24,982 nt of DNA from the IMG/VR virus record IMGVR_UViG_2551306526_000003. One strand, given 5' to 3'. Under the pieces are notes generated by a model that was given only the letters and a program-made list of their open reading frames with translations, ran no database searches and was not told where the DNA came from. The stretch comes from a virus (lineage: Duplodnaviria; Heunggongvirae; Uroviricota; Caudoviricetes). This document shows positions 6,277 through 7,296 of the stretch, piece by piece. Every line of letters starts with the position of its first letter. Positions within the stretch are counted from its first letter, which is position 1. A program made the position numbers and the translations under genes.

Positions 6277-6684
6277 TCACTCTCCTTTGATGCGAATGCC
6301 AGTAGCGCGGATTGCATCGATGACTTCAGAAACTTTGTATGCCATTACCGTTTGGTAATCATCGTGAAAATCTGTTCGATGAAGCATGCTGCTACGTTCC
6401 GGGAGCAGTATTTCCCGCGCTTCCAGTTCTGCAATGCGCTTTTTTGCTGCTTCCAGTTCATCCAGTAATTCCAGCACGGTAGCCGGATTAGCCTTGGCAA
6501 CAAAATCCCGGACTGGCTTACAATCAATCTCCGCAATGGGTTGATTCGATGTGTAGCCATGCTGTCTTGTATAACTACCGTGACGAATAACGAAAAAATC
6601 ACCATTTATTTTTTTAGCCTGCCACTTATCTTCACCGGCTTTCTCTGCCGCTTCACGCAGTGCCTGAGAGTTAATTTCGCTCAC
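6277..6684 (-). CDS. Ead/Ea22-like family protein, 135 aa, GTG start, coiled-coil segment
   Basis: Segment ANPATVLELLDELEAAKKRIAELEAR typical of Ea22-like proteins; GTGA start/stop overlap with the upstream gene; SD GAGAGG. Confidence 0.5.
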   Translation of the reverse strand: MSEINSQALREAAEKAGEDKWQAKKINGDFFVIRHGSYTRQHGYTSNQPIAEIDCKPVRDFVAKANPATVLELLDELEAAKKRIAELEAREILLPERSSMLHRTDFHDDYQTVMAYKVSEVIDAIRATGIRIKGE

Positions 6685-6902
6685 TTCGAACCTCTCTGTT
6701 TACTGATAAGCTCCAGATCCTCCTGGCAACTTGCACAAGTCCGACAACCCTGAACGACCAGGCGTCTTCGTTCATCTATCGGATCGCCACACTCACAACA
6801 ATGAGTGGCAGATACAGTCTGGTAGTTCAGACGACGCATTTTTATTGCTGTGTTGCGCTGTAATTCTTCAATTTCTGATGCTGAATCAATGATGTCTGCC
6901 AT
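6681..6902 (-). CDS. TraR/DksA-family C4-type zinc-finger protein, 73 aa
   Basis: Cys cluster THCCECGDPIDERRRLVVQGCRTCASC (CxxC ... CxxC) and size typical of phage TraR homologues. Confidence 0.75.
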   Translation of the reverse strand: MADIIDSASEIEELQRNTAIKMRRLNYQTVSATHCCECGDPIDERRRLVVQGCRTCASCQEDLELISKQRGSK

Positions 6903-6950
6903 CTTCCATTAATCCCTGAATTGTTGGTTAATACGCTTGAGGGTGAATGC

Positions 6951-6978
6951 GAATAATAAAAAAGGAGCCTGTAGCTCC
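6951..6978 (-). terminator. Intrinsic terminator on the minus strand (stem GGAGC/GCTCC, then U-tract) inside the leftward pL-type operon; candidate tL-type site
   Basis: Hairpin ggagc-ctgta-gctcc at 6964-6978; plus-strand A-run 6951-6963 gives UUUUUUAUUAUUC on the leftward transcript. Confidence 0.5.
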
Positions 6979-7000
6979 CTGATGATTTTGCTTTTCATGT

Positions 7001-7216
7001 TCATCGTTCCTTAAAGACGCCGTTTAACATGCCGATTGCCAGGCTTAAATGAGTCGGTGTGAATCCCATCAGCGTTACCGTTTCGCGGTGCTTCTTCAGT
7101 ACGCTACGGCAAATGTCATCGACGTTTTTATCCGGAAACTGCTGTCTGGCTTTTTTGATTTCAGAATTAGCCTGACGGGCAATGCTGCGAAGGGCGTTTT
7201 CCTGCTGAGGTGTCAT
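7001..7216 (-). CDS. Hypothetical early-left protein, 71 aa (MTPQQENALRSIARQANSEIKK...); track ORF runs to 7282, but the shorter start at 7216 is preferred because of ATGA coupling
   Basis: In the position of lambda orf61; the ATG at 7216 overlaps the stop of the small ORF 7213-7296. Confidence 0.5.
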   Translation of the reverse strand: MTPQQENALRSIARQANSEIKKARQQFPDKNVDDICRSVLKKHRETVTLMGFTPTHLSLAIGMLNGVFKER

Positions 7217-7296
7217 TGAACAAGTCCCATGTCGGCAAGCATAAGCACACAGAATATGAAGCCCGCTGCCAGAAAAATGCATTCAGTGGTTGTCAT
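7213..7296 (-). CDS. Candidate small hydrophobic single-TM peptide, 27 aa ([27 protein letters not shown]), translationally coupled on both sides
   Basis: ATG at 7296-7294 overlaps the TGA of the upstream ORF (7293-7295); its own TGA (7215-7213) overlaps the ATG of the 71-aa ORF; strongly hydrophobic core. Below the track size cut-off. Confidence 0.35.
   Translation of the reverse strand: MTTTECIFLAAGFIFCVLMLADMGLVQ

What the first reader, a model, noticed from the sequence alone, without database searches (positions are those of the whole stretch)
7213..7296. Unannotated 27-aa hydrophobic peptide gene wedged between two early-left genes with ATGA overlaps on both sides
The [30 protein letters not shown] starts with an ATG overlapping the upstream stop (ATGA at 7296-7293) and ends with a TGA overlapping the downstream ATG (7216-7213). 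Double translational coupling argues it is expressed. A single-TM peptide in the kil/early-left neighbourhood could be a small membrane toxin, division inhibitor or anti-defence peptide. It is below the ORF-track cut-off.
Basis: seen in the sequence. Interest (0 to 1): 0.5.

Follow-up and report, generated by a model that had tools for sequence, protein, structure and literature searches.

The report
Hidden 27-codon lambdoid phage peptide gene
A 27-codon reading frame between two early genes of lambda-like prophages, hidden because the neighbouring gene orf61 was annotated over it, mutates like a real protein-coding gene and probably makes a tiny membrane peptide while passing ribosomes on to orf61.

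Summary
Window 7213-7296 (minus strand) is a 27-codon [30 protein letters not shown]. Its ATG overlaps the orf63 stop (ATGA, 7296-7293) and its TGA overlaps the start of the 71-aa form of orf61 (ATGA, 7216-7213). The window is the exo-xis (early-left) region of an E. coli lambdoid prophage. The same ORF lies in phage lambda at 30925-31008 (complement).

It lies in 3,144 of 5,426 complete E. coli genomes and 175 phage records. None of the RefSeq or phage records I opened annotates it, though a few GenBank/UniProt entries list it as hypothetical.

Across 433 gapless copies, 16 of 33 distinct substitutions are synonymous in this frame against 24% expected (P=0.002). Seven of the eight commonest are synonymous. 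The frame of the published 93-aa Orf61 extension looks neutral (8/25), and distant Orf61 homologues begin at the 71-aa start.

The ATGA junction survives with three different upstream genes. The orf61 start behind it has a weak ribosome-binding site.

Best reading: a translated, selected, hydrophobic micro-peptide that also relays ribosomes to orf61. Translation, membrane location and function were not shown. It is a new member of a known kind.

The parts
7213..7296 (-). 27-codon ORF (81 nt plus TGA) encoding [27 protein letters not shown]; corresponds to lambda 30925-31008 (complement)
   Evidence: Synonymous excess only in this frame: 16 syn / 17 nonsyn of 33 distinct variants in 433 copies against 0.244 expected, P=0.0023; codon-position counts 8/7/18.
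7293..7296 (-). ATGA overlap 1: orf63 stop TGA (7295-7293) and small-ORF start ATG (7296-7294)
   Evidence: The junction NNNNNNATGA is kept in 431 of 433 copies despite variable upstream sequence and three different upstream genes; 2 copies have ATAA.
7303..7310 (-). Shine-Dalgarno-like GAGAGAGA, 7-14 nt before the small-ORF ATG
   Evidence: Duplex with the 16S 3' end is -5.6 kcal/mol. In the methyltransferase context the same slot holds GGGAGG, -10.3 kcal/mol.
7213..7216 (-). ATGA overlap 2: small-ORF stop TGA (7215-7213) and orf61 (71-aa form) start ATG (7216-7214)
   Evidence: Variants are CAATGA in 384 copies, CAGTGA (GTG start) in 45 and TAATGA in 4; all keep stop and start overlapping.
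7001..7216 (-). orf61, 71-aa form (MTPQQENAL...FKER), the conserved protein; weak own SD (GGGA at 7225-7228)
   Evidence: Homologues at 29-47% identity in Klebsiella, Yersinia, Vibrio, Erwinia and Enterobacter phages align from residue 1, and their annotated CDS start there. SD duplex -3.9 kcal/mol. True-frame synonymous excess.
7217..7282 (-). Supposed N-terminal extension of the '93-aa Orf61' (MHFSGSGLHILCAYACRHGTCS), read in another frame across the small ORF; rejected as coding
   Evidence: 4 syn / 22 nonsyn and 8/25 in this frame. No usable SD. Absent from distant homologues and from PhiR5_1-type loci.
7293..7484 (-). orf63 (DUF1382), the upstream gene; in this window fused in frame to orf60a (ORF 7293-7649) through a G-tract
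6909..7004 (-). Next small ORF (31 aa, MNMKSKIIRELQAPFLLFAFTLKRINQQFRD); its ATG overlaps the orf61 stop (ATGA), extending the chain of overlapping stop-start junctions
   Evidence: Probably the 31-aa 'orf2313' reported from lambda ribosome profiling according to PMC8614690; that identification is my inference.

Best explanation
The 84-nt interval is a real, translated small gene of the pL early-left operon of Escherichia lambdoid phages. Shown: the ORF, its two ATGA junctions, its conservation, and a substitution pattern typical of amino-acid-level purifying selection. Inferred mechanism: ribosomes that finish the upstream gene (orf63, or a Dam-like methyltransferase in another mosaic) at UGA restart on the overlapping AUG, helped by a moderate (GAGAGAG) or strong (GGGAGG) Shine-Dalgarno sequence. 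They make a 27-residue, very hydrophobic peptide with acidic residues at both ends and no basic residues. The peptide probably sits in the inner membrane. They then terminate on the second AUGA and restart on orf61, whose own Shine-Dalgarno is weak. The ORF would therefore be both a micro-protein gene and the relay that couples Orf61 synthesis to the upstream gene. Origin, inferred: an 80-nt insertion directly after the ancestral SD and ATGAC start of orf61, flanked by a repeated ATGACA. The small ORF inherited orf61's original ribosome-binding site. The peptide's cellular target is unknown. My most likely guess is that it modulates a host inner-membrane protein early in lytic growth, possibly together with Orf61, with which it is always linked.
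For: 1) Substitutions. In 433 gapless copies, 16 of 33 distinct substitutions are synonymous in this frame against 24.4% expected (P=0.0023). For variants seen in at least 2 loci the split is 14/11 (P=0.0007). Codon positions 1/2/3 carry 8/7/18 variants. The other two sense frames give 8/25 each, dN/dS about 1. The earlier 303-copy set gave 14/12 (P=0.0012), and synonymous variants were more frequent than nonsynonymous ones (Mann-Whitney P=0.005). Seven of the eight variants seen in at least 10 loci are synonymous. 2) Empirical null. None of 150 off-frame 81-nt windows across orf63, the small ORF and orf61 fell below P=0.21, against 0.002 for the small ORF in frame in that run. 3) Peptide identity. 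385 of 433 copies encode the identical peptide although the DNA carries common synonymous differences at six sites. 4) Integrity. 303 of 305 copies were intact. 5) Junctions. ATGA is kept behind orf63 alleles with different C-termini (GGTATGA, GGCATGA, TTGCATGA), behind a 185-aa N6-adenine methyltransferase (GGGAGGCTGCATGA), and in Escherichia sp. E1V33. 6) Ribosome-binding sites. Small ORF -5.6 or -10.3 kcal/mol, orf61 71-aa start -3.9, 93-aa start -3.8 and badly spaced. Where the small ORF is absent, orf61 has its own GAGG or GGAGG. 7) Ancestral junction. The methyltransferase C-terminus ...LARREAA* and the junction GGGAGGCYGCATGAC are shared between the E. coli methyltransferase-small-ORF junction and the methyltransferase-orf61 junction of Enterobacter phage CobraSix. 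8) Hydrophobicity is in the top 0.5% of shuffles. 9) Prevalence: 3,144 of 5,426 complete E. coli genomes and 175 phage records including lambda, 434, 933W, VT2-Sakai and Phi24B; phage 21 also carries it.
Against: No direct evidence of translation was available. The lambda ribosome-profiling paper is not held, and a review of it lists only a 7-aa and a 31-aa extra ORF in this region. The family is narrow and young: every copy is at least 92.6% identical at peptide level, it is confined to Escherichia lambdoid elements, and no distant homologue exists. The test therefore rests on only 33 variants, P is about 1e-3, and some contigs were fetched twice. Exceptions exist: 2 copies have ATA in place of ATG, 4 have Q27stop, 1 has a 1-nt deletion (low-coverage metagenome), and E1V33 has a 14-nt deletion that fuses the ATG to the orf61 frame. 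Orf61 does without the ORF in 13 of 216 E. coli-type loci and in all distant homologues. The same test gives no signal for orf63, a protein with an NMR structure, so its power is limited. One antisense frame reaches P=0.019, most simply a shadow frame that shares third positions. The peptide lacks the basic flanking residues typical of membrane-anchored small proteins.
Confidence: 0.6

Rival explanations
1. Relay only. The ORF is translated, but only the passage of ribosomes matters, delivering them to the SD-poor orf61 start. The peptide is an inert by-product that is rapidly degraded.
For: Weak orf61 SD behind the ORF, against a good SD where the ORF is absent. The ORF looks like a recent 80-nt insertion that displaced orf61 from its ribosome-binding site. 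It is always linked to orf61. It has no homologues and no known domain. The neighbouring 31-aa coupled ORF shows no synonymous excess.
Against: A pure relay needs only an open frame. It does not predict the excess of synonymous change, the third-position bias, or the rarity of nonsynonymous variants.
Confidence: 0.17
2. Untranslated spacer. The ORF and both ATGA overlaps are chance features of an intergenic insertion, and orf61 initiates on its own.
For: The chance of such a bridging ORF is about 0.6% per junction, not negligible across a whole window. AT-rich or T-rich frames readily give hydrophobic peptides. The review of the lambda ribosome-profiling study does not list it.
Against: Frame-specific synonymous excess. 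The ORF is intact in about 99% of copies. The ATGA is retained across three upstream gene contexts, with a strong GGGAGG in one. Lambda's annotated orf61 covers the ORF, so profiling reads there would have been credited to orf61 (inference).
Confidence: 0.1
3. The region encodes the N-terminus of Orf61: the 93-aa form starting at ATG 7282 as in Phi24B vb_24B_7c, or lambda's 61-aa orf61. The 27-codon frame is an accidental overlap.
For: This is the published and partly the database annotation. PHROG 303 models the 93-aa form. E1V33 carries an in-frame 93-aa ORF with a good SD.
Against: In that frame 22 of 26 and 25 of 33 variants are nonsynonymous. There is no SD at 7282. Homologues at 29-47% identity and PhiR5_1-type loci start at the internal Met directly after another gene. 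A common allele turns that Met into GTG, still a start codon. Lambda's 61-aa frame exists only because of a T-to-G change and an extra A in an A-run. The published AlphaFold and RoseTTAFold models disagree on the position of residues 1-23, and those residues were left out of the model statistics (PMC8614690). The E1V33 frame results from a 14-nt deletion not found in any complete E. coli genome.
Confidence: 0.06
4. The conserved element is not this ORF but something on the other strand or at RNA level: the antisense 61-aa ORF 7229-7414, a small RNA, or a structured regulatory element.
For: The antisense frame that contains the 7229-7414 ORF shows a weak synonymous excess (11/15, P=0.019).
Against: That frame shares third positions with the sense frame, so it is an expected shadow. 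It has a stop inside the small-ORF interval and excludes the commonest synonymous sites at codons 24 and 27. No plus-strand promoter-like site lies near it. There is no Rfam match. The RNA folds less well than its shuffles, z=+1.5.
Confidence: 0.03

Closest known systems
Small hydrophobic inner-membrane proteins of E. coli (Hemm/Storz class, e.g. YohP 27 aa, KdpF 29 aa, AcrZ 49 aa; from my own knowledge) and the predicted enterobacterial intergenic microproteins of 'The Cryptic Bacterial Microproteome' (PMC11188072)
   Same: Fewer than 50 residues, one hydrophobic helix-length segment, missed by annotation, and recognised through purifying selection. That study reports 67,297 such clusters, mostly hydrophobic.
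   Different: Phage-borne, in the middle of an operon, with ATGA overlaps on both sides. It has no basic flanking residues. The peptide is not in that study's held supplementary tables. Membrane location is untested.
Gene pairs coupled by termination-reinitiation at 4-nt ATGA overlaps (Huber et al. 2019, cited in PMC11188072)
   Same: The upstream stop and downstream start share ATGA at both ends, and the downstream orf61 start has a weak SD.
   Different: Here a whole micro-ORF sits between two larger genes as a double relay. Coupling efficiency was not measured.
Lambda orf61 (NP_040613, 61 aa) and Phi24B vb_24B_7c / 933W 'Orf61' (93 aa)
   Same: They occupy the same DNA. The published orf61 deletions, two-hybrid constructs and models all include this interval.
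   Different: They use a different reading frame. The conserved Orf61 is the 71-aa protein that starts at the second ATGA. The small ORF is a separate gene upstream of it.
Type I toxin peptides (Ibs, ShoB, DinQ, TisB; from my own knowledge)
   Same: Size of 18-35 aa, extreme hydrophobicity, and frequent prophage association.
   Different: There is no antisense RNA gene, promoter or structured leader. It is translated from within a polycistronic operon. It carries acidic rather than basic or polar termini. Toxicity is untested.
The 31-aa ORF downstream of orf61 (probably lambda 'orf2313' of Liu et al. 2013, as cited in PMC8614690)
   Same: A tiny ORF in the same chain of overlapping stop-start junctions, with ATGA or GTGA overlapping the orf61 stop.
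   Different: That ORF was reported as translated but shows no synonymous excess (8/16, P=0.18). The 27-aa ORF shows the excess but has no reported translation.

Membership tests
Protein-coding gene under purifying selection | Excess of synonymous over nonsynonymous change, specific to one frame | tested here: met
   16/17 against 24.4% expected, P=0.0023; other sense frames 8/25; codon positions 8/7/18. No off-frame window reaches this.
Protein-coding gene under purifying selection | ORF intact (start, no premature stop, no frameshift) across homologous copies | tested here: met
   303 of 305 intact. In the larger set, 2 of 433 have ATA starts and 4 have Q27stop.
Protein-coding gene under purifying selection | Direct evidence of translation (ribosome footprints at the start codon, detected peptide) | not testable with these tools
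   Liu et al. 2013 is not held. No paper or supplement contains the peptide.
Single-pass small membrane proteins | Hydrophobic segment long enough to span or embed in the bilayer | tested here: met
   C6-L20 has KD mean 2.87. The 21-residue segment C6-V26 has a summed Hessa dG of -0.14 kcal/mol. GRAVY is 1.62, top 0.5% of shuffles.
Single-pass small membrane proteins | Basic residues flanking the helix (positive-inside rule) | tested here: not met
   No Lys or Arg; E5 and D22 only.
Single-pass small membrane proteins | Membrane localisation | not testable with these tools
   The peptide is too short for the structure tool (30 aa minimum) and no experiment is available.
Termination-reinitiation coupled genes | Stop and start codons overlap (ATGA, GTGA or TAATG) | tested here: met
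   Both junctions in the window. Kept in 431 of 433 upstream and 433 of 433 downstream junctions.
Termination-reinitiation coupled genes | Downstream gene depends on upstream translation | tested here: inconclusive
   The orf61 SD is weak (-3.9 kcal/mol), and is replaced by GAGG or GGAGG where the small ORF is absent. This is consistent with dependence but does not measure it.
Type I toxin-antitoxin toxin | Cis- or trans-encoded antisense RNA antitoxin with its own promoter | tested here: not met
   No plus-strand promoter-like site between 6957 and 7740, no Rfam family, no stable structure. The scans are crude.
Type I toxin-antitoxin toxin | Toxicity on expression | not testable with these tools
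   Needs an induction experiment.
N-terminus of Orf61 (93-aa or lambda 61-aa reading) | The extension is conserved in homologues and evolves as coding sequence | tested here: not met
   Distant homologues and PhiR5_1-type loci start at the internal Met. 8 syn / 25 nonsyn in that frame.
Known phage host-takeover, defence or anti-defence families (Kil, PADLOC, PHROGs, Pfam, NCBIfam) | Sequence similarity to a described family | tested here: not met
   Only sub-threshold noise: MtrF E=0.034, phrog_21538 E=0.68. Nothing in Pfam, PADLOC or the PDB.

The most novel reading that the evidence does not exclude
The 27-residue peptide, not Orf61, is the active product behind at least part of the published 'orf61' phenotypes (more lysogens and more surviving hosts after deletion, delayed induction, poorer Phi24B adsorption). 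Every published orf61 deletion removed it. In lambda itself the 71-aa orf61 is frameshifted while the peptide is intact. It would be a phage-specific membrane micro-protein that tunes the lysis-lysogeny decision, alone or as an obligate partner of Orf61.
Probability: 0.15. Interest if true: 0.6.

Novelty: new member of a known kind. Interest (0 to 1): 0.45.

Why it matters
Lambda is the best-studied temperate phage, and the exo-xis region is one of its last poorly understood parts. If the reading here is right, the textbook gene 'orf61' is mis-drawn. Lambda's 61-aa version is a chimera of two frames. The 93-aa Stx-phage version carries 22 residues that are not protein. A separate 27-codon gene lies underneath.

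Deletion mutants, two-hybrid baits, over-expression constructs and structure models built on those annotations (PMC6213356, PMC8614690) would then need re-reading. The element is also very common, in 58% of complete E. coli genomes and in Shiga-toxin phages. A cheap experiment, a silent start-codon knock-out, could separate the roles of the peptide and of Orf61. As a class, however, small hydrophobic peptides and ATGA-coupled ORFs are well known.

Tried and rejected
- Family and structure libraries for the peptide (Pfam, NCBIfam, PHROGs, PADLOC, PDB) gave nothing above noise.
The structure tool needs at least 30 aa.
- tblastn of the peptide against 50,697 phage records found only near-identical copies, so no deep conservation test is possible.
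- I looked downstream of distant orf63 homologues (P1-like element, ZX5, PA2, CobraSix) and upstream of distant orf61 homologues (Klebsiella, Yersinia, Vibrio, Erwinia, Enterobacter phages) for a divergent copy. None was found.
- The one scan of species-representative genomes returned mainly lambda-identical contamination contigs, plus Escherichia sp. E1V33.
- RNA-level explanations were rejected: no Rfam hit, folding no better than shuffles, no promoter or terminator in the interval.
- The lambda ribosome-profiling paper (Liu et al. 2013) could not be read.
- The supplements of the EHEC small-gene study and of the enterobacterial microproteome study do not contain the peptide. No paper holds the sequence or the UniProt accession.
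- orf63 was meant as a positive control for the substitution test. It showed no signal, so I used orf61 and off-frame windows as controls instead.
- A sliding-window run was contaminated downstream of lambda's 1-nt insertion. I use it only for the off-frame null.

Full report
**What the window is.** The region is the early-left 'exo-xis' block of an Escherichia coli lambdoid prophage, transcribed on the minus strand.
- An 801-nt stretch around the finding is 97.8-99.4% identical to lambda, HK630, DE3 and other lambda-like phages, and 181 phage records match in all, many of them Stx phages. It is 99.9% identical to prophages of APEC-type E. coli.
- The gene order is exo (7640-8320), then orf60a and orf63 (here one fused 118-aa ORF, 7293-7649).
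- Next come the 27-codon ORF (7213-7296) and orf61 (7001-7216, or 7001-7282 in the long reading).
- Last come a 31-aa ORF (6909-7004) and the TraR-like orf73 (6681-6902).

**The observation.** It holds exactly.
- ATGA at 7296-7293 joins the orf63 stop to the small-ORF start.
- ATGA at 7216-7213 joins its stop to the ATG of MTPQQENAL...
- An in-frame TGA five codons upstream, with no start codon in between, makes 7296 the only start.
- A bridging ORF with ATGA at both ends arises by chance at about 0.6% of junctions. The layout alone is suggestive, not decisive.
- The peptide [27 protein letters not shown] is strongly hydrophobic: GRAVY 1.62, top 0.5% of composition-matched shuffles, core C6-L20, two acidic and no basic residues.

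**Annotation status.**
- RefSeq lambda, the curated 434, 21, O276 and ST2-8624 records, recent lambda re-annotations and the PGAP annotation of E. coli ACN002 all leave this interval empty or cover it with 'orf61'.
- The exact peptide is nevertheless in the protein collection, seen on 981 contigs. It appears as 'hypothetical protein' in some GenBank assemblies and as UniProt A0A0A2SGE8_ECOLX, with four single-residue variants.
- No paper in the library mentions it.
- A review of the region says that lambda ribosome profiling added only a 7-aa and a 31-aa ORF here. The primary paper is not held.

**What 'orf61' really is.** Three incompatible annotations exist.
- Lambda's 61-aa orf61 (30839..31024) starts 20 nt inside orf63. 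It reads across the small ORF in another frame and ends early.
- The alignment shows why. Lambda carries a T-to-G change that removes a stop (TGA to GGA), and an extra A in an A-run that frameshifts the downstream gene.
- Stx phages and PhiR11_1 are annotated with a 93-aa form from ATG 7282. PGAP and the 434 and 21 curators use a 71-aa form from ATG 7216.
- The 71-aa form is the conserved protein. Homologues at 29-47% identity in Klebsiella, Yersinia, Vibrio, Erwinia and Enterobacter phages align from its residue 1.
- Their annotated CDS begin there, often directly after a methyltransferase with an ATGA overlap.
- In PhiR5_1-type E. coli phages a 250-aa gene is followed 8 nt later by the 71-aa gene with its own GAGG.
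- The published AlphaFold and RoseTTAFold models of the 93-aa form disagreed about residues 1-23, which were left out of the model statistics (PMC8614690).

**Is the 27-codon frame coding?** I collected 486 loci. They came from IMG/VR and metagenomes, through anchors in orf61 that do not condition on the small ORF, and from annotated records. I counted each distinct substitution once.
- In 433 gapless copies there are 33 distinct variants. Sixteen are synonymous in the small-ORF frame against 24.4% expected (P=0.0023, dN/dS about 0.34).
- For variants seen in at least two loci the split is 14/11 (P=0.0007).
- Codon positions 1/2/3 carry 8/7/18 variants.
- The other two sense frames, including that of the 93-aa extension, give 8/25 each, dN/dS about 1.
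- An earlier 303-copy set gave 14/12 (P=0.0012), against 4/22 in the 93-aa frame. orf61's true frame behaved alike (25/33, P=0.0017).
- Seven of the eight variants present in at least 10 loci are synonymous. Synonymous variants are more frequent than nonsynonymous ones (P=0.005).
- 385 of 433 copies encode the identical peptide.
- None of 150 off-frame 81-nt windows across the three genes fell below P=0.21.
- The best antisense frame reaches only P=0.019. It shares third positions with the sense frame and is interrupted by a stop.

Caveats:
- The whole family is at least 92.6% identical and variants are few.
- Some contigs were fetched twice.
- orf63, a protein with an NMR structure, shows no signal in the same test, so power is limited.
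- The 31-aa neighbour also shows none (8/16).

**Integrity and junctions.**
- The ORF was intact in 303 of 305 copies in the first 323-locus set. The exceptions are a 1-nt deletion in a low-coverage metagenome contig and a 14-nt deletion in Escherichia sp. E1V33. The E1V33 deletion fuses the ATG to the orf61 frame. That allele occurs in no complete E. coli genome.
- In the larger set, 2 copies have ATA in place of ATG and 4 have Q27stop, which still overlaps the orf61 ATG as TAATG.
- The upstream ATGA persists although the last codons of orf63 vary (DQV*, DPA*...). It also persists when orf63 is replaced by a 185-aa N6-adenine methyltransferase (GGGAGGCTGCATGA).
- The downstream junction is CAATGA, CAGTGA (a GTG start) or TAATGA.
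- In every locus found through the small-ORF core, orf61 follows. orf61 without the small ORF occurs in 13 of 216 loci.

**Initiation signals.**
- Duplex energies with the 16S 3' end are -5.6 kcal/mol for the small ORF behind orf63 and -10.3 behind the methyltransferase.
- They are -3.9 for the 71-aa orf61 start, and -3.8 with wrong spacing for the 93-aa start.
- Where the small ORF is absent, orf61 has GAGG or GGAGG at normal spacing.

**Origin.**
- The methyltransferase C-terminus (...LARREAA*) and the junction GGGAGGCYGCATGAC are shared between the E. coli methyltransferase-small-ORF junction and the methyltransferase-orf61 junction of Enterobacter phage CobraSix. Klebsiella phages show the same GGAGG-N4-ATGAC layout.
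- The small ORF begins ATGACA, and 80 nt later orf61 begins ATGACA.
- The simplest reading is an 80-nt insertion just after the ancestral orf61 start. The small ORF then inherited orf61's ribosome-binding site, and orf61 was left dependent on reinitiation. This is inference.

**Other explanations.** There is no Rfam family, no stable RNA structure (z=+1.5), and no promoter or terminator in the interval.

**Mechanism and confidence.** I consider the following most likely.
- The ORF is translated by reinitiation after orf63 or the methyltransferase.
- It yields a selected 27-residue hydrophobic peptide, probably in the inner membrane.
- It hands ribosomes to orf61.

My subjective estimates:

| Claim | Estimate |
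|---|---|
| Translated and under peptide-level selection | about 0.75 |
| Relay role | about 0.55 |
| Membrane location | about 0.6 |
| Full statement (all three together) | 0.6 |

The target is unknown. Published orf61 deletions (more lysogens and survivors, delayed induction; PMC6213356) removed this ORF too. In lambda the 71-aa gene is frameshifted while the peptide is intact, so part of those phenotypes could belong to the peptide. That is speculation, at about 0.15.

**Comparison and novelty.** It works like the many small hydrophobic bacterial micro-proteins and like ATGA-coupled genes. It is not a member of any described family and lacks the hallmarks of type I toxins. It is a new member of a known kind. 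Its practical consequence is a re-annotation of lambda orf61.

Noticed in passing
lambda NC_001416 30839..31024 (L001 1885-2070); window 7128-7315 equivalent: Lambda's annotated orf61 is a frame chimera. A T-to-G change (TGA to GGA) opens an upstream frame, and an extra A in an A-run (A7 against A6) frameshifts the conserved 71-aa gene. In lambda the true Orf61 is therefore truncated after about 29 residues.
   Followed up: yes
window 7485-7500 (G-tract just upstream of the orf63 ATG at 7484): A homopolymeric G-tract differs in length between the window (GT+G9), ACN002 (T+G9), PhiR11_1 (G8) and lambda (GAGGGG). In the window it puts orf60a in frame with orf63, giving a 118-aa fusion ORF 7293-7649. 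This could be a slippage-prone tract or a sequencing error.
   Followed up: partly
window 6909-7004 (minus strand); L120 1604-1705: The 31-aa ORF after orf61 starts with ATGA (GTGA in most copies) overlapping the orf61 stop. It contains a terminator-like hairpin (6980-6962). A similar peptide (…RPFLLLAFTFNRINRLFEE) lies upstream of the zinc-finger gene in Enterobacter phage CobraSix and in E1V33. It shows no synonymous excess (8/16), so the conserved feature may be the hairpin or DNA rather than the peptide.
   Followed up: partly
L011 702-797 (Yersinia phage vB_YenM_06.16-1, OM046622.1 1865-1957 complement): An unannotated, non-homologous 31-aa transmembrane-like ORF (MKRKISDGAWFWIYLIGYTVAATLYIVSNAG) fills the same slot. 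Its ATG overlaps the methyltransferase stop (ATGA) and it ends 3 nt before the GTG start of the orf61 homologue. Only five near-identical Yersinia phages carry it, so selection could not be tested.
   Followed up: partly
window 7293-7484 (orf63): orf63 (DUF1382, with a published NMR structure) shows no frame-specific synonymous excess in the same population sample (16 syn / 33 nonsyn, P=0.11). Its last three or four codons differ between alleles. This suggests relaxed or diversifying evolution.
   Followed up: no
L017-L030 (GTDB genome contigs): Several ~48.4-kb contigs and many shorter ones, 100% identical to the lambda orf61 match, sit in assemblies of Shewanella, Pseudomonas, Bradyrhizobium, Paenibacillus, Kitasatospora, Oceanobacillus and others. 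This is almost certainly lambda control-DNA contamination. 'Campylobacter phage CJLB-4' (MW057783.1, 48,361 bp) is likewise lambda-like.
   Followed up: no
window 8317-8788: Only the C-terminal part of bet is present next to kil. The 99.9%-identical ACN002 prophage has bet annotated as a pseudogene missing its N-terminus, directly after kil, with no gam between. The prophage is probably defective in recombination functions.
   Followed up: no
window 7001-7216: Many PGAP and GenBank records name Orf61 'cell division protein ZapA'. The Pfam ZapA match is only E=0.014, 16.1 bits against a gathering score of 23.8. The name looks unsupported.
   Followed up: partly
NZ_CP027587.1 2036556-2036596 (hit H220): An isolated 41-nt perfect copy of the small-ORF / orf61 junction (query positions 68-108) lies beside a Q antiterminator gene in E. 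coli 2013C-4974. It may be a recombination scar.
   Followed up: no
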